A stretch of 64,000 nt of DNA from contig JBAZUR010000001.1 in NCBI GenBank assembly GCA_041661305.1, positions 167,077 to 231,076 of the forward strand, in the 5' to 3' direction. The notes beneath the pieces were generated by a model. It saw only the letters and a program-made list of their open reading frames with translations, did no database searches and was not told the origin of the DNA. The translations under genes and the position numbers were made by a program. Positions 34,680 through 49,603 of this stretch are shown piece after piece (the stretch's first letter is position 1; each line of letters starts with the position of its first letter). The DNA is from Minisyncoccota bacterium. GTDB taxonomy: Bacteria > Patescibacteriota > Minisyncoccia > Phycocordibacterales > VMEP01.

Positions 34680-35323
34680 TGAAAGATTTTTTACCACCAC
34701 TTCTTTTGCAGAAAATTGTTTGGATCCCAACTAGGCTTTTTTTAATTTTTTTTGCAAAACTTGAGGTGCGTGGTTTAGAGAATCTCGAAGGACTAAAAGG
34801 TAAAGTTGTTTTTGTTAGCAATCATAGTAGTGAACTTGACCCAATTTTACTTCCAGCTGCCCTGCCTTTATTTTCCCCTCTTTCGCCAATTTTTTATACC
34901 TCAAGAGAAAAAGAGTTTTATGAACGTCACTCGTTTTTAAAATGGCTTTTCTATCGCGAATGGTTTTTTGAAATTTGGGGGGCGCATCAAATTCAGGTTG
35001 GGAAACATGACTATGAGAAATCTTTAGAAAAGCATAAGGAAATTTTGAATAGTGGTGGCTCTCTTTTTATTTTTCCCGAGGGACGGAAAACAACAGACGG
35101 GAGCATTTTGCCTGCTCATGGTGGTGCCGCATATCTTGCGAGGGCAACTGGTGCTCCAATTGTTCCAACTTCAATTAGAGGAGTTTTTAAAATAAAGCTA
35201 AGAGATTTTCTTTTAAGGCGCGCCAAGATTGTCCTTGTTTTTAGTGCTCCAATAATCCCGCTTAGTGACGATTATAAAGCTGAGGTTCAAAAAGTTATGG
35301 ATATCATAGCCAAGAATCTTTAA
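34679..35323 (+). CDS. 1-acyl-sn-glycerol-3-phosphate acyltransferase-like (PlsC family), copy 1.
   Basis: Acyltransferase blocks (VFVSNHSSELDP, FIFPEGRKTTDG). Start ATG overlaps the dnaJ stop (ATGTAATGA). Confidence 0.75.
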   Translation: MKDFLPPLLLQKIVWIPTRLFLIFFAKLEVRGLENLEGLKGKVVFVSNHSSELDPILLPAALPLFSPLSPIFYTSREKEFYERHSFLKWLFYREWFFEIWGAHQIQVGKHDYEKSLEKHKEILNSGGSLFIFPEGRKTTDGSILPAHGGAAYLARATGAPIVPTSIRGVFKIKLRDFLLRRAKIVLVFSAPIIPLSDDYKAEVQKVMDIIAKNL

Positions 35324-35333
35324 TTTAAAAACC

Positions 35334-35624
35334 ATCGAAACAAAAAAATTTCAACGGAATATTGAGGATTTTATCTGCAGTGAATGCAGTTTTTCTGTTG
35401 AGGGTAATGGGTACACAAACCATTGCCCCAAGTGCTTATGGAGTAAACACGTGGATATAAATCCAGGTGATCGCGAGTCTGAGTGCTTAGGCGCCATGGA
35501 GCCAATAGGAGTGGAACTTAAAGCGGGGGATTATGTGATCACACATCAATGTGTTAAGTGTAGTTTTGTTCGAAAAAACAAAACCACAAAAGAAGATGAT
35601 TTTAGGGTGATATTAAGCCTATAG
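35334..35624 (+). CDS. RNHCP-domain small protein. The start is uncertain: no in-frame ATG, GTG or TTG after the upstream stop at 35307-35309. The frame reads ...ETKKFQRNIEDFICSECSFSVEGNGYTNHCPKCLWSKHVD...CVKCSF...
   Basis: Hand-translated frame with the TNHCPKCLWSKHVD motif and paired Cys. Absent from the ORF track because no canonical start exists. Confidence 0.45.
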   Translation: METKKFQRNIEDFICSECSFSVEGNGYTNHCPKCLWSKHVDINPGDRESECLGAMEPIGVELKAGDYVITHQCVKCSFVRKNKTTKEDDFRVILSL

Positions 35625-35654
35625 TTAATTTAGTAACGATAAACAGACTTTTGT

Positions 35655-36977
35655 ATGATACAAGTTATTATAGAAAAAAGCGGAGAGAAGATATCTTTTG
35701 ATATCGATACTAATTTTCGTACTGCAATTTTAGGAGAAAATGGTATCGGTAAAACAAGTATTCTTGAAAGTATTACACTAAAGTCTTCAAAAAATGATTG
35801 GTTAACTGTTCATGTTCCAGAGCGAGTTAAGATAGTTTTTCTTTCCCAAATTGAAACTAATACAGGCCTTGTTTCTGGTGGAGAACATATGAAAAAAAGA
35901 CTTGAGTATCTTTTTTCCCAAAAAGCAGATCTCTATGTATTAGACGAGCCAACAAATAATCTCGATGAGAAAAATATTTCTTGGCTTAAAAAACATATTG
36001 TTGAAAACAAATTATCAATTATATTTACTAGTCATAATATAAATTTTATTGACGATTGTGCAGAAGTAATATTTTACCTAGATTCTAAAGGTGTTGAAAA
36101 AACAAAAGAACGATGTTCTTTGTATTTAGTATCGCGTAAAAAAAAGATTGAAAGAGAGTTTTTAATGTATGATATCGCTATTAAAAAACAAGAAGAACTT
36201 AAAGATGCTGCCCGAAAAGCAAAACAACACAGCGAGGCTGGAGAAAAATGGAAGGGAACAGATAACGACAAGTATTTAAGAGGATTTAATAGAAATTCTG
36301 CTGGTAAAGGAGCGGCCACGGCAAGAATGCTTGGAGAAAGGGCAGAAAAAATAAGCGTTGAAAAACCACAACATGACCCCATTCCGAAAGCCCTGTTTTT
36401 GGACTTAGGTTTTGTCGGTAATTTATTTAACTTACTTTCTACATCTTTATCGCAAAAAAGAATTAGTCTTTTAGTAAATAGCGGAGATAAAATTCTTATT
36501 ACTGGACCAAATGGTGTCGGAAAGACCACCTTTCTCGATTATTTAGTAGGTCTTTTAAATGGTCTAGCGCAAAAAAGTGAAGATATGTTTAATCGTGGCG
36601 GTAAATTTTCATATTATTATATTTCACAAAATTGGTATGAAAATTTAAATGACCAGACGGTAGGAGAATACCTAAAAAACTTTGGTTTAAATGAGGCAGA
36701 AATCTATAGGTCAATTTCTTTTAATCATATAGACAAGTCTATTTTAAATAAAAAATTTAAGAATGTATCACCAGGGATAAGAATTAAAGTTCTTTTAGGG
36801 GCTCTTTCTTGTAAAAAATTAGATTTAATAATTTGGGATGAACCAACAAACCATCTTGATGTTATGACTCAATACGTCTTAAGGGATGCACTTCTAAAAT
36901 ACGCTGGATCTCTTATTCTTGTTTCGCATGATAGATTATTTTTGGACGATAGTTCGTTTACCCGTGTTACGTTGTAA
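35655..36977 (+). CDS. Minimal ABC-F family ATPase (two tandem NBDs, no TM domain, no NBD1 arm).
   Basis: Walker A GENGIGKTS and GPNGVGKTT. Q-loop VFLSQ. Signature VSGGEHMKKRL. ABC-F-type Walker B/D-loop LDEPTNNLD and WDEPTNHLD. Inter-NBD linker CSLYLVSRKK. The second signature is degenerate (VSPGI). Confidence 0.7.
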   Translation: MIQVIIEKSGEKISFDIDTNFRTAILGENGIGKTSILESITLKSSKNDWLTVHVPERVKIVFLSQIETNTGLVSGGEHMKKRLEYLFSQKADLYVLDEPTNNLDEKNISWLKKHIVENKLSIIFTSHNINFIDDCAEVIFYLDSKGVEKTKERCSLYLVSRKKKIEREFLMYDIAIKKQEELKDAARKAKQHSEAGEKWKGTDNDKYLRGFNRNSAGKGAATARMLGERAEKISVEKPQHDPIPKALFLDLGFVGNLFNLLSTSLSQKRISLLVNSGDKILITGPNGVGKTTFLDYLVGLLNGLAQKSEDMFNRGGKFSYYYISQNWYENLNDQTVGEYLKNFGLNEAEIYRSISFNHIDKSILNKKFKNVSPGIRIKVLLGALSCKKLDLIIWDEPTNHLDVMTQYVLRDALLKYAGSLILVSHDRLFLDDSSFTRVTL

Positions 36978-37012
36978 TAAAATGTTTAAATTAACATATA
37001 CAAGTAGCCTTT

Positions 37013-37841
37013 TTATGAGCGCTCCTTTATAAGCTTGTATAACAATGGACGGATAGTCGTAATATCTTTATGGAACGACAAGTGACCAAGCGGTAGTTTG
37101 TGGATAGCAATACCATATTTTTTGCAAATAGTACTCAGTTCCGAAATTTTAATTTGATTATCTTCTTCTCCCGCAACAACAGTACATTTTGATGGGTTAA
37201 ACATGGGATCCTTTGAAAGCATGTCGAGAGATATTAGTTCATCACTCAAGAGTTTCTTCCAGTTTTGGTTAGAATATCGATAGGCGCCACTAAATGCTTC
37301 TTTTATAAATGAATCCAATGTCTCTATTCCTGGTACTTCCGACATGGAATAGGCCGGGGATAGTGCAATCACAGACGTAATATCTTCACTGAGGCTAGTA
37401 TTAAGAGCAACCAACCCCCCCCAAACTAGACCCTAGAACCAACACGCGATTAACGTTAAAATTTTTCCCCTGCAAGACTACTCCACTTTTAAGACTGTGC
37501 GCTAATTTTCGAATATCTTCCGCTGGGTTATGGTCAAGAAACTCACCACCCGATTCCCATGTTCCTTTAAGTCTTGGGTAAAAAGCTGCATACCCCCACG
37601 AACATAAAAGATTGAGGAATGATAAAAGTTCTGGTGTGCGTGGCAAACCATCAAGAACTATTATTGCCAAGTTATAATTTTCCGGAAGACAATATTCGAA
37701 GACAACATCATCGATTGACCCGCATTGCAAACGTTCCTTTTCTCTTGAAGGTAGGATGCGGGATGCAAGGTTCTCCTTAAAATATTTAACAAGTTTTTTA
37801 GAAATACTTTCAATGACAGTGAGGTATGAATTTTTTACCAT
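37013..37841 (-). pseudogene. Alpha/beta-hydrolase (GxSxG, dienelactone-hydrolase/peptidase-like) split by a +1 frameshift inside a G8 homopolymer (minus strand; C8 on plus at 37415-37422).
   Basis: ORF 37401..37841 ends ...LVLGSSLGGVGCS*. ORF 37013..37414 begins (TTG) LVALNTSLSED. Deleting one G restores a continuous ...GSSLGGLVALNTS... nucleophile-elbow sequence. Confidence 0.65.
37415..37422. repeat. C8/G8 homopolymeric tract at the frameshift site.
   Basis: ccaaCCCCCCCCaaac read directly. Such tracts are rare in this AT-rich context. Confidence 0.8.
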
Positions 37842-39247: not shown

Positions 39248-39700
39248 ATGAAAATAAAGATAAAATCTAAAAAGATTTTAGAAAAATCATACGGTATAAT
39301 TGTTGCTTATAAACAAAGCAGTACGGAGACAAAATACCTTATTATTCAAAGCAAAGGTACGAATGATTGGAGTTTTCCAAAAGGACATGCCGAAAAAGAT
39401 GAAACTTCAGTTGAGACTGCATTAAGAGAACTAAAGGAGGAAACCGGAATCTCGCAAATAAGTCTTATTCCCGATGTGTCATTCTCTGATAAGTACAGAT
39501 ATAAAGCCAATGGTATATGGAATCGAAAACAAGCTACATTCTTTGTTGGTATTACAGATAATCTAAATGTAAAAATACAACAAGAAGAAGTGGTAAATTA
39601 TATCTGGTCTAATTATGATGATGCGGTAAAAATTCTAACTTTTGAAAATCAACGAAAAATCTTGCGTGAAGCCTATTCTAAAATACTAGAAATCAATTAG
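39248..39700 (+). CDS. NUDIX hydrolase (Ap4A/NTP pyrophosphohydrolase-like).
   Basis: Canonical Nudix box GHAEKDETSVETALRELKEETGIS. Confidence 0.8.
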   Translation: MKIKIKSKKILEKSYGIIVAYKQSSTETKYLIIQSKGTNDWSFPKGHAEKDETSVETALRELKEETGISQISLIPDVSFSDKYRYKANGIWNRKQATFFVGITDNLNVKIQQEEVVNYIWSNYDDAVKILTFENQRKILREAYSKILEIN

Positions 39701-39798
39701 TAATAAGTCACAGTGTGTTCCTATGTACTGAAAATAATAATTATAGTATTGTAGTGTAATCCTACATAAACAGATAGATCCAGTTTAAATTGATTTTT

Positions 39799-41139
39799 AT
39801 GACCAAAGTTATTACACGTTTTCCACCTTCCCCAACTGGAGAAATTCATATTGGCAACATGCGAACCATGTTGTTTAATTATTTGTATGCAAAATATTTT
39901 AATGGAGAGATTTTCCTTAGGTTTGAGGATACTGATAAAGAAAGGAGTAAAAAGGAATACGAATCTATTGTCATAGATGGGTTACATGCTTTAGGTTTAA
40001 ATTTTGACCATGGTCCATTCAGGCAATCAGAAAGAGGTGCTATCTATAAAGAAAAATTATTAGAACTCATCAAGCTTGGACGTGCTTATGAAGCTGAAGA
40101 CTCATTGGGTGGTTCTGGAAAAGCCATTAGGTTCAAGAATCCGAACAAAATTATAACCTTTGATGACAAAGTTCGTGGTCATGTATCTATTGATTCAAGT
40201 ATTTTTGGTGACTTTGTTATTGCGAGGAATATTGATAATCCAATTTACCATTTTGCTGTTGTTGTGGATGACATGGATATGGGAGTTACCCATATAATTA
40301 GGGGGGAAGACCATATTACAAGTACTCCTAGGCAGATACTTCTACTAGAAGCTTTGGGTGGGAACATACCCGTTTATGCTCATTTGCCACTCATTGTTGG
40401 CGAAGACAAGAAGAAATTGTCTAAACGACATGGTGCCACCTCTGTCAGCGGTTTTTTAAAGCAAGGTTATTTGCCGTCTGCTTTAGTTAATTATCTTGCA
40501 TTCTTGGGATGGAACCCTGGGGGCGAACGGGAAATATACTCATTAAAAGAGTTAACTGAGATATTTGGTTTGGATAGAGTGGGCAAAAATCCAGCTAAAT
40601 TTGATTACAATAAACTCAATAATATAAATTATCATTACATGATTAATTTATCCGAAGACGAATATAGGACAAATCTTTTTATGTTTTTAAATGAAGAATA
40701 CTCCAAACTTTTTAATGCTAATTTCACTATTTCTAATACAGTAATACAAAATGTAATAAAACCAAGAATAAAAAAGTTTTCGGAAGTGTCGGACATGATC
40801 ACTAACGGGGAACTAGATTATTTTTTTAAGAAGCCACCAGTAAATTATGATTTGATTCGGTTTAAAACTGATTCTATTGAAAAGACAAAAAGCATTCTTG
40901 AAAAGTTAAAGGTATTAATAGGGAACATATCAAGTAATGACTGGAACACGGATGGTTTGAAAAATAATATATCTACGCTTTTTACAGAATACGGTGTTGG
41001 AAATGTTCTCCACCCTCTAAGAGTTGTTTTATCGGGGAAAAAAGAATCTCCAGATCCATTCACGTTAAGCTATATTCTGGGCAAAAAAGAGACTTTGGAG
41101 CGAATTGATTCCTGTCTTGCTAAGCCAAATAATTTGTAA
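39799..41139 (+). CDS. gltX: Glutamyl-tRNA synthetase, copy 1 (within the AT-rich island).
   Basis: PSPTGEIHIGNMRTMLFNYLYA (HIGH region), KLSKRHG (KMSKS), full-length anticodon-binding domain. The ORF-track start at 39790 is TTG; ATG at 39799 (MTKVITRF) preferred. Confidence 0.85.
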   Translation: MTKVITRFPPSPTGEIHIGNMRTMLFNYLYAKYFNGEIFLRFEDTDKERSKKEYESIVIDGLHALGLNFDHGPFRQSERGAIYKEKLLELIKLGRAYEAEDSLGGSGKAIRFKNPNKIITFDDKVRGHVSIDSSIFGDFVIARNIDNPIYHFAVVVDDMDMGVTHIIRGEDHITSTPRQILLLEALGGNIPVYAHLPLIVGEDKKKLSKRHGATSVSGFLKQGYLPSALVNYLAFLGWNPGGEREIYSLKELTEIFGLDRVGKNPAKFDYNKLNNINYHYMINLSEDEYRTNLFMFLNEEYSKLFNANFTISNTVIQNVIKPRIKKFSEVSDMITNGELDYFFKKPPVNYDLIRFKTDSIEKTKSILEKLKVLIGNISSNDWNTDGLKNNISTLFTEYGVGNVLHPLRVVLSGKKESPDPFTLSYILGKKETLERIDSCLAKPNNL

Positions 41140-42038
41140 TGAAATATATTGACAATTCAACTTATAAATATAACAAAACGTACCCAATAGTTAAGTTGTC
41201 GGATATTTATTTAGATCAAAAAGATGAAGGGGTGTTGTTAGAAAAAATTAAAGATTCCCCCTGGTATATATACAGTTCAGATTTGATTAAAAAAAATTCA
41301 TTCCTAAAATTAAAACAAATAATATCGTTAACCAAAGACGTTGAGTTAATAGTAAAAACATATTATCCCAATATTAATATCAAGCACCTTTCTATTGGTG
41401 GATCTTATCTTTTCAAAAACGGAGAGTCCAATGATATTGACTTTAACGTAATAGTTGAGGGTAGCTTTTTTGATTATATGGATGTTTTTGAGTTTGATGA
41501 AATTAATAAAAAATTATTTTCCAAAGTCAAAAAAATATCCTTTATGATTTTTGGCGAGGATGATTTATTGTTTGACACTAATATTGATGACACCATTGAA
41601 ACCACTAATTATATCCATACCTCGCTTTGTATGAGAGAGGGGGTTGTTTTCTCGATTAGAAATATCCTTGTGCATGGGTTCGATATATGTAAAAAAGAAA
41701 TTGACACACATAATTTGATAATAAGAATTAAAAGACAGTTGTATCATGCTCGACTCTTGGTTGACGGTAAGGTTAATATACATACAACACAAGAAGAAAG
41801 ATTAGCAAAAGCAGTTAGTCGTATATGTGAAGCAGCTTTTTACCTATCATTAGTATTTCCAGAATTAAAAATTGACCCCGAATCAGTTTTTGAAAGAGAA
41901 ACGACATTGATTACAGAAGGCAACGCAACTGGCGCTTATAGCTGGCTTAAAGAGGTTGAATTTATAGCAGATAATATTGTTGTGAAAGTTTTAAATAATG
42001 GTTATCATGACTCCGTAAGCCCCTATCGTCTAACGTAG
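41139..42038 (+). CDS. Pol-beta-superfamily nucleotidyltransferase domain protein (about 300 aa; MNT/AbiEii/CCA-like GS...DxD core).
   Basis: LSIGGSYLFKNGESNDIDFNVIV matches the hG[GS]-x(9-13)-DhDh NTase motif. Start ATG overlaps the gltX stop (TAATG). Confidence 0.5.
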   Translation: MKYIDNSTYKYNKTYPIVKLSDIYLDQKDEGVLLEKIKDSPWYIYSSDLIKKNSFLKLKQIISLTKDVELIVKTYYPNINIKHLSIGGSYLFKNGESNDIDFNVIVEGSFFDYMDVFEFDEINKKLFSKVKKISFMIFGEDDLLFDTNIDDTIETTNYIHTSLCMREGVVFSIRNILVHGFDICKKEIDTHNLIIRIKRQLYHARLLVDGKVNIHTTQEERLAKAVSRICEAAFYLSLVFPELKIDPESVFERETTLITEGNATGAYSWLKEVEFIADNIVVKVLNNGYHDSVSPYRLT

Positions 42039-42088
42039 GACGTCATCTAATTGAGATGAAAATTTAGGTTCGATACCTAGTAGGGGTT
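42019..42088 (+). ncRNA. tRNA-like cloverleaf candidate (non-canonical anticodon loop) overlapping the 3' end of the NTase gene.
   Basis: Acceptor GCCCCTA/TAGGGGT (7 bp incl. G:U). D-stem GTC/GAC. Anticodon stem TCATC/GATGA with loop TAATTGA (no U33). T-arm TTAGG-TTCGATA-CCTAG (near-consensus T-loop). Not validated by any tool. Confidence 0.2.
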
Positions 42089-42098
42089 CTAGAAAAAA

Positions 42099-43283
42099 AT
42101 GTCAAAAAAGGTGATATTAAATAGCCAGTGTCTCCCTAAAAAGAACTACCATTGTGGAAACGCTGTCAGTCATATTGTTTCTGAAATATCTTATCTTTTT
42201 TTTACTGAATTTGATAAAAAAAATGATTTTTATTTTGTGAATGATTCTTGGAATTTGCATGGTTTACCATTTGAGACCATGTACGTTGAAAAGTTTGGCT
42301 CAAATATAAATTACGAAAAAATAAAAGATTTTGCCGAGGAATGTATTAATTATGCAAAGCACGAAAAATCTTTTTTTAGCAACATTAAGCTTGGTCCAAA
42401 CATTATTGAGCATTCAGATACTGATCCGGAGTTTGTTAGATATACAACCGATATATTTCATGAATTAATAGATAGTAAAATCATTATTAAGACAGGAAAT
42501 CATTATTCTCTTGATCTATTATCAATTAAGAACACTTTAAATTTTGATGGAATAAAAATATTTCCAAGTCAACATAGAACAACAATAGTAAACGACGCAA
42601 AAATGATAAATGGTTTATATCCGATTACAAAAAATAGAGTTTTTTCGCCAAGTATTAATATAGATAATATTAACTACGTTATAAATCCTATTTTTCAGTC
42701 TTTTGTATATCCTTTGTATATAAGCGAAAAGTATGGATTTAATTACCCGGTTTTTTTGTTTACGAGTTCATCTGGACATGGAATGCTTAAGTGGCATTAT
42801 CTTAGAAATATTGTTTCTTTTGCATTGTCACAAAATCATCCGTATGAAAACCTGGTTTTGCACGGGAATATCCTGGGCGCAAACAATAGAAGAATGAGTA
42901 AACATGACAACAATGTTGTTAAGCCGTCGGATTTATATAAAATTCTACCCGATAGAAGATTTGTTAGGCACGTACTAATCAAGTCTATCTCGGACAAAGA
43001 TTTAATGCTTCAGACTGATATCTCTTTTTCAGAATTTAACAAAATAAAGAATAAATTGGACATAATACACACTAATGAATTTAATATACTAAATCCTAAA
43101 AACTTAAATATTACATTGACTAGTATTAAAAACGATTTAAAAAACTTTAAAATAAAAAAAGCTTTTGATTGTTTTGTTGATTTTATTAGAAGAGCCCAGA
43201 TAGTACAAACAGATAGCGTTGTTGATGGCGAGTTTCTTGAGTTAATAAAAATCTGTAATGTTTTTTATGGAAACAAAAAATAA
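42099..43283 (+). CDS. Degenerate GluRS-like class-I aaRS paralog (394 aa); catalytic motifs mutated.
   Basis: NYHCGNAVSHIVSEISYLF aligns with the GluRS HIGH region (HIGN..RTxLFNxLxA). VLHGNILGANNRRMSKHDNNVV aligns with the GluRS HLPLI....KLSKRHG block. Confidence 0.5.
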   Translation: MSKKVILNSQCLPKKNYHCGNAVSHIVSEISYLFFTEFDKKNDFYFVNDSWNLHGLPFETMYVEKFGSNINYEKIKDFAEECINYAKHEKSFFSNIKLGPNIIEHSDTDPEFVRYTTDIFHELIDSKIIIKTGNHYSLDLLSIKNTLNFDGIKIFPSQHRTTIVNDAKMINGLYPITKNRVFSPSINIDNINYVINPIFQSFVYPLYISEKYGFNYPVFLFTSSSGHGMLKWHYLRNIVSFALSQNHPYENLVLHGNILGANNRRMSKHDNNVVKPSDLYKILPDRRFVRHVLIKSISDKDLMLQTDISFSEFNKIKNKLDIIHTNEFNILNPKNLNITLTSIKNDLKNFKIKKAFDCFVDFIRRAQIVQTDSVVDGEFLELIKICNVFYGNKK

Positions 43284-43369: not shown

Positions 43370-44059
43370 ATGAAGCACCAAGATAATTTACTGCTTGAAA
43401 CTGCTTACCACGTAATAAGAATAATTCTCTCCCCTTTAGTTAAGTTGTTTTGGATTAAACAAGTGGTCGGCCTTGAGAATATACCGCAAAAAGGTGCTGT
43501 AATATTTGCTTTTAACCACCAAAGTTACTTTGATTTTATTTGTTTTATTGCTGTGTGCCCTCGCCATGTTCATTATCTTTCAGCAGAAAAATTTTTCACC
43601 AACTCTTTTTGGAACCCAATCATGAAAATAATGGGACAAATTAGAGTTGAAAGAACAAGTAAAGATAAAAGAGCGCTACATAATTTAATTCAAAAACATT
43701 TGGAAAACGGTAAAATTATTGGGATTTTTCCAGAGGGGACAAGGTCCCCACACCCCGAGAAAATGCTTGAAGCCTATAGTGGAGTAGCTCGATATTCATA
43801 TCACGGCAATGTTCCCGTTATCCCTGTAGGGATTAAGGGAGCATATGAGGTAATGTCTCGTTTTGACAAAAAACCAAAAGTTAGAAAAAGTATCGAAATT
43901 ATTATCGATAAACCAATTGACTTGTCGCCGTATCATCACAGTAAATTAAACCGAAAAGCTTTTAAGGTGATAACAAATAAAATAATGGTAAGAATTGCAG
44001 AACTTTCAGGAAAAGCTTATCCATATAAAATTTATCCTCCATGGCCACAGAAAATCTAG
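43370..44059 (+). CDS. 1-acyl-sn-glycerol-3-phosphate acyltransferase-like (PlsC family), copy 2.
   Basis: VIFAFNHQSYFDFI (HX4D-type block), IFPEGTRSP. Confidence 0.75.
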   Translation: MKHQDNLLLETAYHVIRIILSPLVKLFWIKQVVGLENIPQKGAVIFAFNHQSYFDFICFIAVCPRHVHYLSAEKFFTNSFWNPIMKIMGQIRVERTSKDKRALHNLIQKHLENGKIIGIFPEGTRSPHPEKMLEAYSGVARYSYHGNVPVIPVGIKGAYEVMSRFDKKPKVRKSIEIIIDKPIDLSPYHHSKLNRKAFKVITNKIMVRIAELSGKAYPYKIYPPWPQKI

Positions 44060-44706
44060 CAATTTTTGATATTGACGGAACGCTAATTCGTGGGCAAAGC
44101 CAGAAGTCTTTGCTTATGTTTCTTTACAGCGGGGGTTATATTTCACATTGGTATTATTTCAAAATAATGATTTGGTTCATCTTATATCAACTGCACTTCA
44201 TCGATAGTCCAAAAAAAGTAATGGAGTACGCTTTTTCTGTTTTTAAGAATACTCGAGAAGATAGAGCAAAAGAAATTATTGATGAATATTTTGAATTACA
44301 TTTAAAATATAAATTTTATAATGATGGCTTGAAGCTTATTGAGCAACTAAAGGGAGAGGGGTACAGAATTATATTGATATCAAATGCTATTAATTTGATT
44401 GTAGAGAGGATTGAAAAATACCTCAAAGCTGATGATTCAATTGGAACAATACTCGAGGTAGTTGACGGGCGACTTACTGGAAAGATTGATGGTTCAATCG
44501 TATATGGTTTAGAAAAAAAGAGGGTACTTGAAGAATATTCACGCAAAAACGACATAAAATTAAGCAATGCTTCTGCCTACGGAGACCATATTTCAGATAT
44601 CTCTATGTTAGAATTGGTAGGTCACCCATTTGTTGTTAACCCATCAAATAGGCTAAGTAGTATTGCAATCAAAAAGGGGTGGCCAATATTGATTTTTAAA
44701 AACTGA
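44041..44706 (+). CDS. HAD-superfamily hydrolase, subfamily IB (phosphoserine-phosphatase-like).
   Basis: Motif I IFDIDGTL. Capped HAD-IB architecture. Motif III/IV (GDHISD). Confidence 0.7.
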   Translation: MATENLAIFDIDGTLIRGQSQKSLLMFLYSGGYISHWYYFKIMIWFILYQLHFIDSPKKVMEYAFSVFKNTREDRAKEIIDEYFELHLKYKFYNDGLKLIEQLKGEGYRIILISNAINLIVERIEKYLKADDSIGTILEVVDGRLTGKIDGSIVYGLEKKRVLEEYSRKNDIKLSNASAYGDHISDISMLELVGHPFVVNPSNRLSSIAIKKGWPILIFKN

Positions 44707-44707
44707 A

Positions 44708-46297
44708 ATGAACCTTTTTTACATATCAAGTATTCTTATTTTTTTCGCCAGCTTAGCATTTGGGCTATTTGTTTATGTTAATAACACAAGAGCAAGGTTA
44801 AATAGCTCGTGGTTTTTATTTTCGTCCCTAATTGCTTTTTGGGGGTTTTCTCTTTATGGGGTGACTTCAGCAAAAGATATTGAGACCGCAATGTTATGGC
44901 AATATGCACTTGATGTAATTGCGATTTTCATTCCCGTTCTCTATGTAAATTTTATTTTAAGTTTTCTTGGAATAAAAAATAAAGTAGTCATCTATACAAC
45001 CTTTATTATAGGGTTATTATTGGCAATTTTAAGTACCACAGAATTTTTTAAGGTTGGAATAATAGATCGGTTTGGTTTTTATTGGATAAATCCCGGGCCT
45101 TACTACTTACTCTTTCCAGCGTTCTTTATTCTTTGTGTTATATACGCTTTGTTTCTTCTTTTTCAGGCATACACAAATGACAAAAATAATAAGCGTTTAC
45201 GTGCACAAATACGACTTCAGATAATTGCTGGTGTGATTGGTTTTAGTGGTGGAATTACGAATTTTTTACCACAATTTTTCAACATTTTTCCGTTCGGTAA
45301 TTATTTTGTTCTACTTTATATTTTTTTCATTAGTTATTCTATTATTAAATATAAATTTTTTGATCTCAAAACAGCTGCAACTGAATTATTCGCGGGCGGT
45401 GTTGTTATCTTATTTTTCTTTAATTTGCTTACGTCTGTCACCATTCAAGATTGGCTTATTAGGGCATTACTATTAGCTCTCGTGTCATTCTTTAGTGTTC
45501 TTATTGTGCGCGGTGTTTCAAAAGAAGTTAGGGCGCGCGAACAAATTGAGTTGTTGGCCAACGATTTAAAAATCGCGAATGAGCGTCTGCAATTTTTGGA
45601 CAAACAAAAATCGGAATTCGTTTCCATCGCCTCGCATCAACTAAGAAGCCCACTCACGGCCATTAAAGGATATACATCAATGGTTCTTGAAGGTTCGTTT
45701 GGTTTTATTGAGCCAAAAACAAGAGAGGCTGTTGATAGAATTTTTCAATCAGCGCAAAATCTTGTGGGAATTGTTGACGATCTTCTTAATATAACTCGTC
45801 TTGAGCAAGGGAGAATGGAATACTCTTTTGAAAAAGTTGATTTATCAGCACTGACAAAAGAAATTGTTGATTCACTTTACCCGAATGCATTAAATAAAAA
45901 ATTAGGCTTAACTTTTGAAAACGACAAAGCTACGGATTATTTTGTTAATGCTGACTTACTTAAAATTCGACAGGTCGTACTCAATTTGGTTGATAATGCA
46001 ATTAAATATACGCGCGAGGGAGCAGTTAAGGTAAATGTTTCTAAAATTAATAATGGAAAAGGAGTGCGCGTTGCTGTTGCCGACACCGGTGTTGGAATTA
46101 CCCCCGAGCTCCGTTCACGTCTTTTTGAAAAATTTAGTCGTGGCGATGAGGTTAGCAAGTTGCACACAAATGGCACAGGTCTTGGTTTGTATATCGCCAA
46201 GCAAATGATTGAGGCCCACAAAGGGACTATTGGTGTTAATTCTGACGGAGAGGGTAAGGGCTCAACATTCTATATAGAAATACCTACGCTTAATTAA
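44708..46297 (+). CDS. Sensor histidine kinase with N-terminal multi-TM sensor domain. Orphan, as no response regulator is adjacent.
   Basis: About 7 TM helices. HisKA H-box (VSIASHQLRSPLTAIKGY). HATPase_c N/G boxes (LVDNAIKYT, DTGVGI, GTGLGL). Confidence 0.8.
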   Translation: MNLFYISSILIFFASLAFGLFVYVNNTRARLNSSWFLFSSLIAFWGFSLYGVTSAKDIETAMLWQYALDVIAIFIPVLYVNFILSFLGIKNKVVIYTTFIIGLLLAILSTTEFFKVGIIDRFGFYWINPGPYYLLFPAFFILCVIYALFLLFQAYTNDKNNKRLRAQIRLQIIAGVIGFSGGITNFLPQFFNIFPFGNYFVLLYIFFISYSIIKYKFFDLKTAATELFAGGVVILFFFNLLTSVTIQDWLIRALLLALVSFFSVLIVRGVSKEVRAREQIELLANDLKIANERLQFLDKQKSEFVSIASHQLRSPLTAIKGYTSMVLEGSFGFIEPKTREAVDRIFQSAQNLVGIVDDLLNITRLEQGRMEYSFEKVDLSALTKEIVDSLYPNALNKKLGLTFENDKATDYFVNADLLKIRQVVLNLVDNAIKYTREGAVKVNVSKINNGKGVRVAVADTGVGITPELRSRLFEKFSRGDEVSKLHTNGTGLGLYIAKQMIEAHKGTIGVNSDGEGKGSTFYIEIPTLN

Positions 46298-47967: not shown

Positions 47968-47971
47968 ATAT

Positions 47972-48484: not shown

Positions 48485-48488
48485 AAAT

Positions 48489-48725
48489 ATGAAAAAATTA
48501 CCCACCAAAAATGATGACGGAAATCCTCTCGTGAATGTTGTTGTGAGGGTCAGTGACGGTAATGTATACGAATGTGTGGGGGTTTTAATGGAGGAAAATG
48601 GGGACTCAATCGAAGTGGCTTTTAACGCTGTAAATAAAAAAGTTATGGACTCTTTGGTTTTTAAAAAAACCGACATACTTAGTATTAATATTCTAGATCC
48701 GCTAACTATAGAAGAGCTCACTTAA
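48489..48725 (+). CDS. Hypothetical small protein. Start placed at the internal ATG (MKKLPTK) after the upstream stop.
   Basis: 78 aa. No motif. Confidence 0.35.
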   Translation: MKKLPTKNDDGNPLVNVVVRVSDGNVYECVGVLMEENGDSIEVAFNAVNKKVMDSLVFKKTDILSINILDPLTIEELT

Positions 48726-48820
48726 TTTGTTCTACATTAAAGCTCGAAAAAACAAAAGCTTTAGTATTCAAAAAAAGAGGTAAAAAGTATGTCCAGATAT
48801 CTCTTGTCATCACTTATTTT

Positions 48821-49216
48821 TTGAGTCATAATAAAAAAATGTTAAACCATCAAAACGGGGTAAATATTGAGGAAATATTTGAGGAAGATTTGCGATCAGA
48901 AATAACAATACTTCTTCAGAATAATCAAAATGAACACATTGTGTTTTTAAAAAATACTCTTAAAAAGAATTTAAATATCAGTAAGCAGTTACGAGTATTA
49001 GTAGAATATGGTCTTACTCACGTAAAAGACAAGGGGGCTGACTTTGCACTTGCTAATTATTTTTTTATTCTCTCGGGTATAAAAAATATCCATAGCGACA
49101 CGCGTAGTTTTTTTACCGACATGATGATTTTTTGTGAAGAAGATGAATATACTGCACTTAAAAATATTTCCGAAATAAAAAATTATTACAATAAAAAAAT
49201 ACTCCCGCTCTTATAA
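48821..49216 (+). CDS. Hypothetical protein.
   Basis: 131 aa. No motif. Confidence 0.4.
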   Translation: MSHNKKMLNHQNGVNIEEIFEEDLRSEITILLQNNQNEHIVFLKNTLKKNLNISKQLRVLVEYGLTHVKDKGADFALANYFFILSGIKNIHSDTRSFFTDMMIFCEEDEYTALKNISEIKNYYNKKILPLL

Positions 49217-49241
49217 AAAGAATTGGAGTATTTGGGGGGAT

Positions 49242-49445
49242 TTATCGTTTCGACTTGTTTGGGAGAGCGTGCGCTCGTTCTGCGCGTCCGTCGGAACTCC
49301 TCTCCACGATAATGTGTTGATGGTCGCTTTTACTTCCACCCGTGTCGCGCAAAACCTCGTATGTTGTTCCGCCGTCGCTTCTTGATTCCGTTTTTTCACT
49401 AACAGAATCCCCATTACTATCACTGAACCAATTACCCCAGCCCAT
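49242..49445 (-). CDS. Small Gly/Ser/Asp-rich 'MGW' protein, paralog B (67 aa). Convergent with the preceding block.
   Basis: GAGGAG RBS. Homologous to 46388..46588. A G7 tract at about 49234-49240 lies just past its stop. Confidence 0.55.
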   Translation of the reverse strand: MGWGNWFSDSNGDSVSEKTESRSDGGTTYEVLRDTGGSKSDHQHIIVERSSDGRAERAHALPNKSKR

Positions 49446-49603
49446 AGCGTTCTCCTCATAAAGACGAAAGGAAACCTCTCTTCTGACTCATTTAAATTCG
49501 CCATTAATATACAGTCTCGCGCACTTTACTGTTCAGTCAACGCCACCAAGGTTACTACATCAAAAGCTTTTAAAATAGGCCGTATTTTGCTATTATTTTA
49601 GCT

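What the first reader, a model, noticed from the sequence alone, without database searches (positions are those of the whole stretch)
35300..49600. AT-rich accessory island packed with translation-related extras (second GluRS, GluRS-like pseudo-enzyme, NTase, NUDIX, minimal ABC-F)
From just after dnaJ/plsC to just before trpS the composition drops, with many stretches that are strongly AT-rich. Gene content switches from core to a set of unusual paralogs. There is an arm-less ABC-F ATPase; ABC-F proteins are ribosome-protection or translation factors. There is a frameshifted hydrolase and an HExxH protease. The island holds a free NUDIX and a full GluRS, although another full GluRS sits in the core at 57636. 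It also holds a pol-beta NTase, a degenerate GluRS-like protein, PlsC/HAD, an orphan histidine kinase, two paralogous small MGW proteins, a NUDIX-like protein and four hypotheticals. An extra aaRS copy next to ribosome-protection-type ABC-F genes is the classic signature of self-resistance within loci that make aaRS- or translation-targeting molecules. It is equally consistent with a toxin/immunity or tRNA-modifying module. Either way it is a coherent, unannotatable translation-centred island.
Basis: partly seen in the sequence, partly recalled or inferred. Interest (0 to 1): 0.85.

Follow-up and report, generated by a model that had tools for sequence, protein, structure and literature searches.

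The report
Private non-decoding tRNA with synthetase cassette
Inside an AT-rich stretch of a tiny CPR bacterium's genome is a conserved cassette (a second glutamyl-tRNA synthetase, a nucleotidyltransferase, a private tRNA whose anticodon has stopped mattering, and a miniature isoleucyl-tRNA-synthetase-like enzyme) that most likely uses the tRNA as an amino-acid carrier to build something other than protein.

Summary
The AT-rich stretch is real (GC 0.32 vs 0.39). The drop lies mostly at codon positions 1 and 2, the tetranucleotide signature is native, and there are no mobility genes or boundary repeats, so it is a fast-evolving accessory region and not a demonstrable import. Most of the gene inventory holds. 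The "degenerate GluRS-like" ORF is instead a compact class Ia (IleRS-like) enzyme with intact HIGH/KMSKS motifs. Across 13 independent CPR lineages this enzyme sits within three genes of a GluRS in 11, beside a pol-beta nucleotidyltransferase in 11, and with a Glu-type tRNA in 7. The tRNA keeps a tRNA-Glu/Gln body with strong covariation, but its anticodon drifts (AUU, AUA, CUA, CUU) and one copy has a truncated anticodon arm, so it cannot be a conserved decoder. Best reading: a tRNA-dependent, non-ribosomal glutamyl-transfer module, analogous to AcmD/AcmF in ascamycin or SbzA in SB-203208. The acceptor varies by lineage (PAPS/sulfotransferase genes or nonulosonic-acid sugar clusters). The ABC-F, HExxH, PlsC/HAD and other genes are not conserved with it. 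No description was found in the literature; function is inferred, not shown.

The parts
39248..39700 (+). NUDIX hydrolase, first gene of the co-directional run. An accessory partner of the cassette.
   Evidence: Pfam NUDIX 58.7 bits. A homolog lies next to the cassette in L012 and L013 (tblastn), and one clusters with it in L014.
39790..41139 (+). Cassette GluRS paralog ('GluRS2'): full length, with catalytic and anticodon-binding domains.
   Evidence: tRNA-synt_1c plus Anticodon_2. gltX_bact 419.6 bits vs cutoff 290. HIGH (HIGN) and KLSKR are intact, and identity to the core copy is 43%. It forms its own clade with the L012/L013/L014 cassette GluRS at 64-66% identity. The C-terminal domain is 27% identical to core but 46-48% within the clade. 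Its stop overlaps the start of the next gene.
41139..42038 (+). C2: pol-beta-superfamily nucleotidyltransferase with a C-terminal helical bundle.
   Evidence: Invariant S85/S89...D99-x-D101 signature. AF2 model pLDDT 89.2. Weak fold matches to the ANT(4')/AAD(9)/AadA adenylyltransferases, HalB and MntA. No Pfam hit. The family has 32 clusters. Elsewhere it is coupled to 2H phosphoesterases and P-loop/APS kinases.
42019..42089 (+). tRNA' : a Glu/Gln-type tRNA gene with anticodon loop UAAUUGA (ARAGORN reads 'AUU'; position 33 is A, not U). CCA is not encoded. It overlaps the last 20 nt of C2 and ends 10 nt before the aaRS-like start codon.
   Evidence: ARAGORN. Cloverleaf MFE -26 kcal/mol, z = -3.6. 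Not reported by the Rfam tRNA model. 87 bits with CM R1. Orthologous copies lie in the same position in L012, L013, L014, L003, L010 and L017, and before the NTase in L008. Covariation: 145/146 cells paired and 10/21 pairs compensatory; the controls were never reached, 0/500.
42099..43283 (+). C0: compact (394 aa) class Ia aminoacyl-tRNA-synthetase-like enzyme, IleRS/ValRS-like. It has no editing domain and only about 125 residues after KMSKS.
   Evidence: Pfam tRNA-synt_1 33.8 bits around KMSKS. Invariant residues are H18, G20, N21, W51, N52, G55 (H54 nearly invariant), and M266, S267, K268. AF2 pLDDT 92.5. Folds: M. mobile LeuRS, MetRS, MshC, CysRS and IleRS at TM about 0.7 and 10-17% identity. 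Profile vs PDB: IleRS, E = 3e-12. Only 23 representatives at E <= 1e-30 among 1.84 billion proteins, with no fusions.
43370..46297 (+). PlsC-type acyltransferase (43370-44059), HAD-IB hydrolase (44041-44706) and 7TM histidine kinase (44708-46297). They follow the cassette on the same strand. PlsC/HAD are lineage-variable passengers.
   Evidence: In the 93%-identical relative L012 a 304-aa methyltransferase replaces PlsC+HAD. The kinase recurs in L012 and L013.
37013..37841 (-). Frameshifted alpha/beta-hydrolase-like gene (two ORFs). Possibly analogous to the hydrolases found near other cassettes, but not homologous to them.
   Evidence: One extra G in a G8 tract compared with the intact 275-aa ortholog in L012, and identical in assembly L001. 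No family hit. L012 and L014 carry unrelated alpha/beta hydrolases nearby.
35655..36977 (+). Short two-NBD ABC-F-like ATPase at the left edge of the AT-rich stretch. Not part of the conserved cassette.
   Evidence: ribo_prot_ABC_F 258 bits, below the 380 cutoff. No homolog in any other locus.
57636..58988 (+). Core (housekeeping-position) GluRS, included for comparison. It sits in mraY-ftsW-murG-GluRS-M23.
   Evidence: The same anchor position carries the type-B cassette in L008, L009 and L011, with M23 immediately after the cassette in L006.

Best explanation
The core of the finding is a conserved operon: NUDIX, GluRS2, pol-beta NTase, tRNA', mini class-Ia aaRS-like enzyme. It appears to be a tRNA-dependent but non-ribosomal acyl-transfer module.

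Proposed steps.
(1) tRNA', a descendant of tRNA-Glu/Gln that no longer needs a meaningful anticodon, is cut out of the operon transcript and given or kept a CCA end.
(2) The cassette's own GluRS paralog loads it with glutamate. It would recognise the conserved Glu-type core (D-stem GUCU/GGAC, 4-nt variable loop), U35 or the acceptor stem, and not a full anticodon.
(3) The IleRS-like mini-enzyme C0 binds the charged acceptor end and a nucleotide-bearing acceptor in its HIGH/KMSKS pocket, then transfers the glutamyl group to that acceptor, as SbzA and AcmF do. Alternatively it uses ATP to add a second acid.
(4) The NTase and the lineage-specific partners build or tailor the acceptor. These partners are APS kinase plus sulfotransferase in L014/L003, methyltransferase in L012 and type B, nonulosonic-acid/capsule genes in L022/L023, and kinase plus phosphatase in L024. 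The product would therefore be an aminoacylated nucleotide-like metabolite or a surface-sugar decoration.

Shown: cassette conservation, tRNA' covariation with anticodon drift, intact catalytic motifs, and the paralog status of GluRS2. Inferred: who charges tRNA', the direction of transfer, and the acceptor.
For: Linkage. Across 13 independent lineages GluRS lies within three genes of C0 in 11, an NTase (C2 or C3) is adjacent in 11, and a Glu-type tRNA is present in 7, in several different gene orders.

tRNA'. 145/146 cells are paired and 10/21 pairs are compensatory. Pairing is 98.6% vs 92.0 +/- 1.2 in shuffles (0/500), and 38-57% when partner columns are slid. It is 74/74 identical between the window and L012, while a neighbouring gene is 94.9% identical. 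The D-stem and the UCGUCUA..GGA core are invariant and shared with bona fide tRNA-Glu and tRNA-Gln. Anticodons are AUU, AUA, CUA and CUU, with only U35 constant. The L008 copy has a 4-bp stem and 5-nt loop in place of the anticodon arm. The D-loop GG is not conserved.

GluRS2. It is a bona fide GluRS by model score and motifs. It forms its own clade, whose C-terminal domain has diverged from the core copy but is conserved within the clade.

Precedents. H. pylori GluRS2 recognises the acceptor stem, and anticodon mutations have little to no effect (PMC2777447). The IleRS homolog SbzA keeps HYGH/AMSKA and transfers Ile from Ile-tRNA to a small molecule. AcmD (a full AlaRS), AcmF (a truncated AlaRS-like transferase) and AcmE (a hydrolase) act together in ascamycin biosynthesis (PMC12945691). 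The acm cluster also has an ATP sulfurylase, an APS kinase and a sulfotransferase (PMC9113183).

C0. HxGN and MSK are invariant, and the Asp that holds the substrate alpha-amino group in class Ia enzymes is always Asn (the role of that Asp is from my own knowledge of IleRS/MetRS structures).

Accessory chemistry. An APS kinase and a sulfotransferase flank the cassette in L014, a sulfotransferase does so in L003, and C2 is fused to an APS kinase in P0036. The cassette is embedded in NeuB/NeuC/CMP-synthetase/KpsS-type clusters in L022 and L023. An N-methyl-glutamyl legionaminic acid is a known bacterial sugar (bioRxiv 10.1101/2020.06.03.131540).
Against: There is no biochemical or expression evidence at all. 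Six lineages (L006, L009/L011, L015, L022, L023, L024) show no Glu-type tRNA in the stretch fetched, so a private tRNA is not obligatory. The window itself has no sulfur-activation or sugar genes next to the cassette, so its acceptor is unknown.

C0 keeps full ATP-handling motifs, which fits equally well with an ordinary adenylate-forming ligase that never touches Glu-tRNA. GluRS adjacency in type B could partly be inherited position, since gltX is the local anchor gene. L003 and L015 lack a nearby GluRS. C2 and C3 are related only at the superfamily motif level (hhalign probability 3%). The T-stem pairs that look weak for EF-Tu binding are shared with the normal tRNA-Glu of L004, so they do not discriminate.
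Confidence: 0.45

Rival explanations
1. RNA (tRNA) repair, maintenance or conflict module. The NTase heals or tails damaged tRNA 3' ends. The methyltransferase, kinase and phosphatase partners play Pnkp/Hen1-like roles. tRNA' is a spare or decoy tRNA-Glu/Gln that escapes an anticodon nuclease, and GluRS2 and C0 keep it charged or sequestered.
For: Outside the cassette the C2 NTase overlaps 2H (LigT-type) phosphoesterase genes in L018, L019 and L021, and sits with P-loop kinases in L020 and L021. Type-B partners are methyltransferase, APH kinase and histidine phosphatase. RlaP-type pol-beta NTases add nucleotides to damaged tRNA ends (PMC12776372). Anticodon-loop drift is what escape from an anticodon nuclease would produce.
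Against: No nuclease, ligase or toxin gene lies in or next to the cassettes examined. There are no PADLOC hits for the novel proteins and no viral copies. A decoy need not keep an acceptor stem with compensatory changes, or a private synthetase. The truncated anticodon arm in L008 cannot replace a damaged decoder. The APS kinase in L014 is a strong, specific match (177 bits), not a polynucleotide kinase.
Confidence: 0.15
2. tRNA-independent ligase. C0 is an MshC-like enzyme that adenylates an acid and attaches it directly to an amino sugar, cyclitol or nucleotide. The nearby GluRS and tRNA' reflect ancestry (a duplicated gltX-tRNA-Glu pair), or tRNA' serves as an mRNA-processing or regulatory element and not as a substrate.
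For: MshC is among the best structural matches and has the same size. HIGH/KMSKS are intact. Context includes sugar clusters, inositol-1-phosphate synthase and murG/wecG. L004 shows gltX followed directly by a normal tRNA-Glu, a plausible ancestor of the GluRS2-tRNA' pair. Many type-B loci have no tRNA'.
Against: tRNA' has stayed under purifying selection with compensatory changes in the acceptor stem across lineages whose proteins are only 35-58% identical. It always abuts C0 or the NTase. GluRS2 is maintained as a separate clade. In L008 tRNA' lies two genes away from gltX and on the other side of it, so it is not a simple gltX-tRNA remnant.
Confidence: 0.13
3. One reading: the extra GluRS is purely a self-resistance copy in a locus that makes a GluRS- or translation-targeting inhibitor, and the ABC-F provides ribosome protection.
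For: There are two GluRS copies in one genome. Adenylate-handling enzymes (C0, NTase, NUDIX) sit together. PAPS genes occur in L014 and L003, as in nucleoside-sulfamate clusters (PMC9113183). An ABC-F-like gene is nearby. In SB-203208 the extra IleRS is both resistance protein and biosynthetic enzyme (PMC12945691).
Against: The ABC-F was not found with the cassette in any other locus. In type B the linked GluRS occupies the housekeeping position. A resistance copy does not explain a private tRNA with Glu identity. No S-N-forming or other core biosynthetic enzyme was found in the window. The island and core GluRS are 43% identical, which on the NJ tree looks like a same-lineage paralog and not a divergent import.
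Confidence: 0.1
4. An H. pylori-type division of labour. The core GluRS charges tRNA-Glu and the island GluRS charges tRNA-Gln for transamidation. The rest is an unrelated neighbourhood.
For: The paralogs are 43% identical. Normal tRNA-Gln(UUG) genes lie near the cassette in L003 and next to stand-alone C2 in L019. tRNA' often has a weak first pair, as tRNA-Gln does.
Against: The tRNA encoded inside the cassette never carries a Gln or Glu anticodon. GluRS2 co-occurs specifically with C2, tRNA' and C0 in four lineages. Whether GatCAB and the tRNA-Gln/Glu genes are present could not be examined.
Confidence: 0.07
5. A decoding suppressor or recoding pair. tRNA' is a working translational tRNA (for example the amber suppressor CUA in L003) charged by C0 or GluRS2 to reassign a codon.
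For: L003's anticodon loop UUCUAAA is a canonical amber-suppressor loop. ARAGORN calls all type-A copies as tRNAs.
Against: The anticodon differs between close relatives, and three of the four would read abundant sense codons (AAU, UAU, AAG). The window copy has A33. The L008 copy lacks a usable anticodon arm. The D-loop GG is not conserved. ORFs across the window read through normally with table 11.
Confidence: 0.04

Closest known systems
Ascamycin AcmD / AcmF / AcmE system (Streptomyces), with ATP sulfurylase AcmW, APS kinase AcmB and sulfotransferase AcmK (PMC12945691, PMC9113183)
   Same: A full-length extra synthetase and a truncated synthetase-like enzyme are encoded side by side. The aminoacyl group travels via tRNA to a nucleotide-like acceptor. 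A hydrolase is nearby. L014 and L003 add an APS kinase and/or a sulfotransferase.
   Different: AcmD and AcmF are class II (AlaRS-like), and AcmF has lost ATP-binding residues. Here the pair is GluRS (class Ib) plus an IleRS-like class Ia enzyme with intact HIGH/KMSKS. The acm cluster has no private tRNA. No amidinotransferase or halogenase is present here. The window itself lacks the sulfur genes. The host is a CPR bacterium, not an actinomycete.
SbzA, the IleRS homolog of SB-203208 biosynthesis (PMC12945691, PMC9437257)
   Same: It is IleRS-related and retains the signature motifs, and it uses aminoacyl-tRNA as an acyl donor to a non-peptide acceptor bound in the adenylate pocket.
   Different: SbzA keeps the full IleRS architecture of about 1000 aa, with editing and C-terminal domains, and uses the cell's normal Ile-tRNA. 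C0 is 394 aa without an editing domain. Its alpha-amine Asp is replaced by Asn, and it is linked to GluRS and a Glu-type tRNA.
Non-proteogenic tRNA-Gly isoacceptors of Staphylococcus (peptidoglycan pentaglycine synthesis; PMC7826273)
   Same: These are dedicated tRNAs kept out of translation and used as amino-acid donors. They show altered D/T-loop features and weak EF-Tu-type T-stem pairs (U50-A64 and A51-U63 are also present in tRNA').
   Different: The staphylococcal tRNAs keep the Gly anticodon, are charged by the sole GlyRS and are used by Fem transferases. tRNA' has lost any fixed anticodon, comes with its own synthetase paralog, and no Fem-type gene is nearby. That paper states such tRNAs had so far been detected only in S. 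aureus and S. epidermidis.
H. pylori GluRS1/GluRS2 (PMC2777447)
   Same: A duplicated GluRS whose second copy recognises a different tRNA through the acceptor stem, with the anticodon largely irrelevant.
   Different: HpGluRS2 serves translation (Glu-tRNA-Gln for transamidation). Here the partner tRNA has no Gln anticodon, and the paralog is locked in an operon with an NTase and an aaRS-like enzyme.
MshC (CysRS paralog, mycothiol synthesis) and GluQRS/YadB (PMC9437257)
   Same: Compact class I synthetase paralogs that activate an amino acid and attach it to a non-canonical acceptor. MshC is a top structural match of similar size.
   Different: MshC is CysRS-derived and tRNA-independent. GluQRS is GluRS-derived and modifies a tRNA base. 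C0 is IleRS/ValRS-like by sequence and belongs to neither family.

Membership tests
Canonical decoding tRNA | Cloverleaf with 7-bp acceptor, 4-bp D, 5-bp anticodon and 5-bp T stems | tested here: met
   The exception is L008, which has a 4-bp anticodon stem with a 5-nt loop.
Canonical decoding tRNA | Anticodon conserved among orthologs and matching the tRNA body's identity | tested here: not met
   AUU, AUA, CUA and CUU on a Glu/Gln-type body.
Canonical decoding tRNA | U33 and conserved D-loop G18G19 | tested here: not met
   The window copy has A33. GG is present only in L013 and L014.
Canonical decoding tRNA | Scores above the Rfam RF00005 gathering threshold | tested here: not met
   Not reported at gathering threshold, nor at E <= 10 in a 301-nt search. 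ARAGORN does call it.
Bacterial GluRS (gltX), for ORF 39790-41139 | Exceeds the curated equivalog cutoff, with both catalytic and anticodon-binding domains | tested here: met
   419.6 bits vs 289.95. PF00749 plus PF19269.
Bacterial GluRS (gltX), for ORF 39790-41139 | HIGH and KMSKS signature motifs | tested here: met
   HIGN and KLSKR, aligned to the core copy.
Bacterial GluRS (gltX), for ORF 39790-41139 | Glutamylates tRNA-Glu | not testable with these tools
   Needs an aminoacylation assay.
Class Ia synthetases (IleRS/ValRS/LeuRS/MetRS), for ORF 42099-43283 | Rossmann catalytic fold with HIGH and KMSKS | tested here: met
   Invariant H18-x-G20-N21 and M266-S267-K268. Fold matches at TM about 0.7. 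Aligns to IleRS HVGH and KMSKS.
Class Ia synthetases (IleRS/ValRS/LeuRS/MetRS), for ORF 42099-43283 | Asp in the GWDxHG motif that binds the substrate alpha-ammonium group | tested here: not met
   Invariant Asn52 (WNxHG) in all 22 sequences. The role of the Asp is from my own knowledge of the structures.
Class Ia synthetases (IleRS/ValRS/LeuRS/MetRS), for ORF 42099-43283 | CP1 editing domain and full-length C-terminal tRNA-binding domains; curated equivalog score | tested here: not met
   394 aa in total. ileS 41 bits vs cutoff 621, and valS 27 vs 612. No editing domain in the model.
aa-tRNA-dependent aaRS-like transferase systems (AcmD/F, SbzA type) | An extra full-length synthetase and a synthetase-like enzyme encoded in one cluster | tested here: met
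   GluRS2 and C0 are separated only by the NTase and tRNA'.
aa-tRNA-dependent aaRS-like transferase systems (AcmD/F, SbzA type) | Genes that build the small-molecule acceptor in the same cluster | tested here: inconclusive
   APS kinase plus sulfotransferase in L014, sulfotransferase in L003, and sugar genes in L022/L023. None was recognised in the window.
aa-tRNA-dependent aaRS-like transferase systems (AcmD/F, SbzA type) | Transfer of the aminoacyl group from tRNA to the acceptor | not testable with these tools
   Needs an enzymatic assay.
Pol-beta nucleotidyltransferase superfamily, for ORF 41139-42038 | hG[GS]-x9-13-Dh[DE]h motif and NTase fold | tested here: met
   SIGGSYLFK...SNDIDFNV, with S85, S89, D99 and D101 invariant and G87/G88 nearly so. 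Foldseek probability 0.97-0.99 to the ANT enzymes, although TM is only 0.25-0.35. No Pfam hit for C2; type-B C3 reaches PF01909 at 24.2 vs 21.
ABC-F translation/ribosome-protection ATPases, for ORF 35655-36977 | Two NBDs joined by a linker; curated family score | tested here: inconclusive
   Two ABC_tran stretches. The best model is ribo_prot_ABC_F at 258 bits, below the 380 cutoff, with the match starting at profile position 112.
Horizontally acquired genomic island | Foreign composition at synonymous sites and in oligonucleotide signature | tested here: not met
   GC3 falls by only 0.04, and tetranucleotide r is 0.93-0.95, as elsewhere in the window.
Horizontally acquired genomic island | Integrase or transposase, flanking direct repeats, or insertion at a tRNA gene | tested here: not met
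   No such domains. Only chance-level AT-rich repeats. The internal tRNA' is a functional part of the operon, not a boundary.
Horizontally acquired genomic island | Absent from the same junction in close relatives | not testable with these tools
   The only close relative found (L012, 93%) carries it.

The most novel reading that the evidence does not exclude
CPR bacteria carry a self-contained, naturally orthogonal set: a GluRS paralog, a private tRNA that has left the genetic code (free anticodon, and in one lineage no anticodon arm at all), and a new mini IleRS-like transferase. The set delivers glutamate to a non-protein acceptor, producing either an aminoacyl-nucleotide (aa-AMP-mimicking) metabolite used against hosts or competitors, or a glutamylated surface sugar. 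To my knowledge this would be the first tRNA gene known to be dedicated to, and encoded inside, a biosynthetic operon, and the first function for a previously unrecognised branch of class Ia synthetase-like proteins.
Probability: 0.35. Interest if true: 0.9.

Novelty: new variant of a known kind. Interest (0 to 1): 0.78.

Why it matters
Dedicated non-translational tRNAs have so far been reported only for staphylococcal cell-wall synthesis (PMC7826273). aaRS-like transferases that borrow aminoacyl-tRNA are known from a handful of actinomycete antibiotic pathways. A cassette that encodes its own synthetase paralog, its own anticodon-free tRNA and a miniature class Ia enzyme would show that a complete 'private' aminoacylation system can be split off from translation.

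It would give a first functional foothold on a rare protein family: 23 representatives among 1.84 billion proteins, plus a wider motif-less tier. It would add an unexpected biosynthetic or surface-modification capacity to genome-reduced CPR episymbionts. It would also offer a natural GluRS/tRNA pair, including a CUA variant, that may be orthogonal and so useful for genetic-code engineering. On the practical side, standard annotation misses the tRNA (Rfam misses the window copy and ARAGORN misses L008's) and labels the enzyme only as a generic 'class I tRNA ligase family protein'.

Tried and rejected
(1) GluRS-like identity of ORF 42099-43283: rejected. It is class Ia, IleRS-like.

(2) tRNA' as a chance ARAGORN call or an island att-site remnant: rejected because of its conserved position, its covariation and the absence of boundary repeats.

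(3) Phage or mobile origin: no relatives on viral contigs, no mobility genes, and no PADLOC hits for the novel proteins.

(4) C2 and C3 NTases as one family: hhalign aligns only the catalytic motif (probability 3%), so I treat them as analogous and not orthologous.

(5) The Streptomyces plasmid 382-aa protein as a hidden C0 homolog: rejected.

(6) Promoter/terminator scan for operon limits: counts equal those of shuffled sequence, so it is uninformative.

(7) Mapping the anticodon-reading Arg of T. thermophilus GluRS onto the two copies: abandoned. That structure ranked 16th, and no alignments were requested (at most five can be printed).

(8) Hydrolases near different cassettes as a conserved AcmE-like partner: they are not homologous to each other.

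(9) Literature searches for this gene combination found nothing describing it.

(10) EF-Tu-weak T-stem as evidence for exclusion from translation: dropped as a discriminator, because the normal tRNA-Glu of L004 shares the same pairs.

Full report
SOURCE AND OBSERVATION

The window comes from a Candidatus Paceibacterota (CPR) bacterium. The aaRS-like protein is identical to an NCBI entry named 'MAG: class I tRNA ligase family protein [Candidatus Paceibacterota bacterium]' on a 476-kb contig. GC drops from about 0.37-0.42 to 0.29-0.36 between 36 and 49 kb.

Per gene, the 16 ORFs of the stretch average 0.323 GC against 0.393 for 44 others (p = 4.5e-7). The drop is 0.085 at each of codon positions 1 and 2 but only 0.04 at position 3. 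The tetranucleotide profile of the stretch correlates with the rest of the window as well as any other segment does (0.93-0.95).

No integrase or transposase domain appears in any ORF, and there are no boundary repeats above AT-rich noise. The compositional observation is therefore real, but it reads as fast-evolving accessory genes in an AT-biased genome, not as a recent foreign insert.

INVENTORY

- A short two-NBD ABC-F-like ATPase: best model ribosomal-protection-like ABC-F, 258 bits, below its 380 cutoff.
- A hydrolase split by one extra G in a G8 run, identical in a second assembly.
- An HELAH-motif ORF with no family match.
- NUDIX, PlsC, HAD-IB, a 7TM histidine kinase and a weak second NUDIX.
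- Two paralogous 'MGW' small ORFs.
- Two full GluRS genes, 43% identical, both above NCBI's gltX cutoff.

Two points were wrong or missed. The ORF at 42099-43283 is not a degenerate GluRS. And ARAGORN finds a tRNA gene at 42019-42089, wedged between the NTase ORF and that ORF.

THE MINI CLASS Ia ENZYME (C0)

Its only Pfam hit is the Ile/Leu/Met/Val synthetase family, around a KMSKS-like motif. Twenty-two homologs of 381-416 aa share an invariant H18-x-G20-N21, W51-N52-x-(H54)-G55 (H54 nearly invariant) and M266-S267-K268.

A profile of the family aligns to IleRS structures (E = 3e-12). HcGN maps onto HVGH, WNlHGLPfE onto GWDtHGLPvE, and MSKh onto KMSKS. The AlphaFold model is confident (pLDDT 92.5). 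It superposes on the editing-domain-less M. mobile LeuRS, MetRS, MshC, CysRS and IleRS at TM about 0.7 but only 10-17% identity.

The ATP-handling machinery is therefore intact. The Asp that class Ia enzymes use for the substrate's alpha-ammonium group (my knowledge of the IleRS and MetRS structures) is always Asn.

The family is very rare:
- 25 clusters among 5.8 billion sequences.
- 23 representatives at E <= 1e-30 among 1.84 billion, none with a fused domain.
- 3 of about 186,000 species-representative genomes.
- None on viral contigs.

A second tier of 380-480-aa relatives is homologous over the full length (hhalign 99.95%) but lacks the HIGH histidine and KMSKS.

THE CASSETTE

I clustered all ORFs of the fetched loci and added three more contexts. 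This gives 13 independent lineages.

Type A is GluRS - C2 (about 290-aa NTase) - tRNA' - C0. It occurs in the window/L012, L013 and L014. L003 lacks the GluRS, and L010/L017 lack the NTase.

Type B is GluRS, C3 (about 345-aa NTase; PF01909 reached in L015), a SAM methyltransferase and C0, in various orders. It occurs in L004, L006, L008, L009/L011, L015, L022, L023 and L024.

GluRS lies within three genes of C0 in 11 of 13 lineages, and an NTase is adjacent in 11 of 13.

In L008, L009 and L011 the linked GluRS sits in the murG-(wecG)-gltX-M23 position (in L006 the M23 gene follows the cassette directly). That is exactly where the window's core GluRS sits (mraY-ftsW-murG-GluRS-M23). The window thus has the anchor gltX without the cassette, plus a second copy of gltX travelling with the cassette 8 kb upstream of aspS.

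AspRS genes also lie next to the cassette in L014 and, truncated by the contig end, in L013. aspS lies 8.7 kb from tRNA' in L008. The cassette is a long-standing resident of this chromosomal neighbourhood.

THE tRNA

The element folds as a cloverleaf (-26 kcal/mol, z = -3.6). Rfam's tRNA model does not report it even at E <= 10. Orthologous copies lie 0-35 nt upstream of C0 in L012, L013, L014, L003, L010 and L017.

A covariance model built from the cassette tRNAs plus the tRNA-Glu of L004 and tRNA-Gln of L003 finds one more copy, which ARAGORN missed. It ends exactly at the start of the NTase gene in type-B locus L008 (63.6 bits).

Across these copies 145 of 146 cells form standard pairs, and 10 of 21 pairs show compensatory double changes. 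On an independent MAFFT alignment, pairing is 98.6% vs 92.0 +/- 1.2 in shuffles and 7 pairs carry double changes vs 2.2 expected, with neither reached in 500 shuffles. Sliding the partner columns gives 38-57% pairing. The window and L012 copies are identical over 74 nt, while a neighbouring gene differs at 5% of sites.

The body is Glu/Gln-type. The UCGUCUA...GGA D-arm, the U13-G22 pair, the 4-nt variable loop and the GGUUC T-loop are shared with the bona fide tRNA-Glu of L004 and tRNA-Gln of L003. These are the 'augmented D-helix' features that E. coli GluRS uses (my knowledge).

The anticodon is not conserved. The loops are UAAUUGA, UUAUAGA, UUAUAAG, UUCUAAA, UUCUUAG and UUCUUAA, which read as AUU, AUA, CUA and CUU with only U35 constant. 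L008's copy has a 4-bp stem and 5-nt loop in place of the anticodon arm, yet keeps the acceptor, D and T arms and an encoded CCA. The D-loop GG is kept only in L013 and L014.

A tRNA under strong structural selection whose anticodon drifts or disappears is not a conserved decoder.

THE GluRS PARALOG

The cassette GluRS copies of the window, L012, L013 and L014 form a clade at 64-66% identity. Their nearest relatives are the window's core GluRS and L008's GluRS, at about 42% and 37-39%. This fits duplication within the lineage.

Divergence from the core copy is concentrated in the C-terminal anticodon-binding domain (27% vs 49% in the catalytic part). That domain is nevertheless conserved at 46-48% within the clade, as expected if it was retuned to a new tRNA.

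There is a direct precedent. H. pylori GluRS2 recognises acceptor-stem elements, and anticodon mutations have little to no effect (PMC2777447).

THE NTases AND VARIABLE PARTNERS

C2 has the pol-beta signature. Its confident model (pLDDT 89.2) resembles the ANT-type adenylyltransferases, HalB and MntA only loosely.

Where C2 occurs without C0, it overlaps a 2H/LigT phosphoesterase gene (L018, L019, L021) or sits with P-loop kinases (L020, L021). In P0036 it is fused to an APS-kinase domain.

In L014 a genuine APS kinase (177 bits) lies directly upstream of GluRS2 and is 38% identical to that fused domain. A sulfotransferase above two Pfam cutoffs lies just after C0 there. Its 56%-identical homolog flanks the cassette in L003.

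In L012, the 93% relative, a methyltransferase replaces the window's PlsC+HAD. In L022 and L023 the type-B cassette, GluRS included, is embedded in NeuB / NeuC-type epimerase / CMP-sugar synthetase / aminotransferase / radical-SAM / KpsS-type clusters, in two different orders. L024 adds a histidine phosphatase and an APH-type kinase.

The same phosphatase-kinase-C3-methyltransferase set, without C0, sits behind a GntR regulator on a Streptomyces anulatus linear plasmid, and the NTase-APH pair recurs on 24 Streptomyces plasmids.

The window has none of the sulfur or sugar genes. The invariant core is therefore GluRS, NTase, (tRNA') and C0, with lineage-specific chemistry around it.

MECHANISM

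The best-supported reading is a tRNA-dependent, non-ribosomal acyl-transfer module. tRNA' is a private carrier. GluRS2 loads it with glutamate. C0 either transfers that glutamyl group to a nucleotide-bearing acceptor held in its HIGH/KMSKS pocket, or adds a second, ATP-activated acid. The NTase and the variable partners make or tailor the acceptor.

The characterised analogues are close.
- In ascamycin biosynthesis a full extra AlaRS (AcmD) charges tRNA. A truncated AlaRS-like enzyme (AcmF) moves the alanyl group onto a nucleoside sulfamate, and an alpha/beta-hydrolase (AcmE) sits between them (PMC12945691). The sulfamate derives from an ATP sulfurylase, an APS kinase and a sulfotransferase in the same cluster (PMC9113183).
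- In SB-203208 biosynthesis the IleRS homolog SbzA keeps its HYGH/AMSKA motifs, binds the acceptor there and uses Ile-tRNA as donor (PMC12945691).
- For the sugar contexts, an N-methyl-glutamyl legionaminic acid is a known bacterial glycan (bioRxiv 10.1101/2020.06.03.131540), and MshC shows that a class I paralog can acylate an amino sugar (PMC9437257).
- Dedicated non-translational tRNAs are known from staphylococcal peptidoglycan synthesis, and had been reported only there (PMC7826273).

I put 0.45 on the general mechanism. Which enzyme charges tRNA', the direction of transfer and the acceptor are all inferences. The rivals are RNA repair or conflict (0.15), a tRNA-independent MshC-like ligase (0.13), a pure self-resistance copy (0.10), a GluRS1/GluRS2 split for tRNA-Gln (0.07) and a decoding suppressor pair (0.04). 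They are set out separately with their tests.

VERDICT

The unit is much smaller than the 14-kb 'island', its key enzyme was misread, and its most telling component, the tRNA, was missed.

No paper in the searchable library describes this gene combination. It is best filed as a new variant of the known kind 'aminoacyl-tRNA-dependent synthesis by synthetase paralogs'. It is distinguished by a co-encoded, anticodon-free tRNA and a new mini class Ia enzyme in CPR bacteria.

Noticed in passing
window 46388-46588 (+) and 49242-49445 (-): Two paralogous small ORFs of about 66 aa, beginning MGWFGWGSDG... and MGWGNWFSDS..., lie in inverted orientation. They bracket the right-hand sub-block of small hypothetical genes (46.6-49.2 kb), and both sit in locally GC-richer DNA. 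Function unknown. The one at 49445 overlaps a longer ORF in another frame.
   Followed up: partly
window 37013-37841 (-): The hydrolase-like gene is broken by one extra G in a G8 homopolymer exactly at its GxSxG nucleophile motif. The same sequence occurs in an independent assembly (L001), while the 93% relative L012 has an intact 275-aa gene. This could be a recent pseudogene or a slippage-prone switch.
   Followed up: yes
window 19392-21986 (+): An 864-aa glycine-rich protein (Pfam Gly_rich_2) with GC2 = 0.61 and local GC 0.44-0.48. It lies in the only segment of the window (20-24 kb) whose tetranucleotide profile departs from the rest (r = 0.83).
   Followed up: partly
L018 6466-7864; L019 6466-7882; L021 82-2601: Outside the aaRS-like cassette, the C2 NTase overlaps a 2H/LigT-type phosphoesterase gene. 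In L021 it is fused to an APS-kinase domain and followed by an AAA_33-type kinase. This is a separate, undescribed two- to three-gene module in CPR genomes. A normal tRNA-Gln lies right after it in L019.
   Followed up: partly
L025 (Streptomyces anulatus plasmid NZ_CP109318.1) 5297-10515: GntR regulator | histidine phosphatase - 382-aa unknown protein - APH-family kinase - C3-type NTase - methyltransferase. The NTase-APH pair recurs on 24 Streptomyces linear plasmids at 60-90% identity. The gene set mirrors CPR locus L024, except that the 382-aa protein (which has a CxxC...CxxC knuckle) stands where the aaRS-like enzyme would be and is not detectably related to it.
   Followed up: partly
proteins P0185-P0243 (alignment A8): A wider tier of 380-480-aa mini class-Ia-like proteins is homologous to the cassette enzyme over the full length (hhalign 99.95%). 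They lack the HIGH histidine and KMSKS, though some keep WNxHG. Their genomic contexts were not examined.
   Followed up: partly
L012 2318-3070 and 7210-8124 vs window 38.9-39.2 kb and 43370-44706: At 93% protein identity the flanks of the cassette already differ. L012 has an extra alpha/beta-hydrolase before NUDIX, and a 304-aa methyltransferase where the window has PlsC+HAD-IB. The window's PlsC is a paralog of the core plsC at 34679-35323.
   Followed up: partly
window 42019-42089; L008 8762-8832: Standard tRNA finders disagree on these genes. Rfam's tRNA model misses the window copy even at E <= 10 while ARAGORN calls it. ARAGORN misses the L008 copy, which a purpose-built covariance model finds at 63.6 bits. 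Such tRNAs are likely under-annotated in CPR genomes.
   Followed up: yes
L022 586-12571; L023 1-12090: CPR contigs carry compact nonulosonic-acid/capsule-type clusters: NeuB, NeuC-type epimerase, CMP-sugar synthetase, class III aminotransferase, radical-SAM/SPASM, KpsC/S-like and carbamoyltransferase genes. That is a notable surface-glycan capacity for genome-reduced bacteria.
   Followed up: no
L014 8704-9408: A second, unrelated 234-aa pol-beta NTase (PF01909 31.6 bits) lies between an alpha/beta-hydrolase and the NUDIX gene, downstream of the L014 cassette.
   Followed up: no
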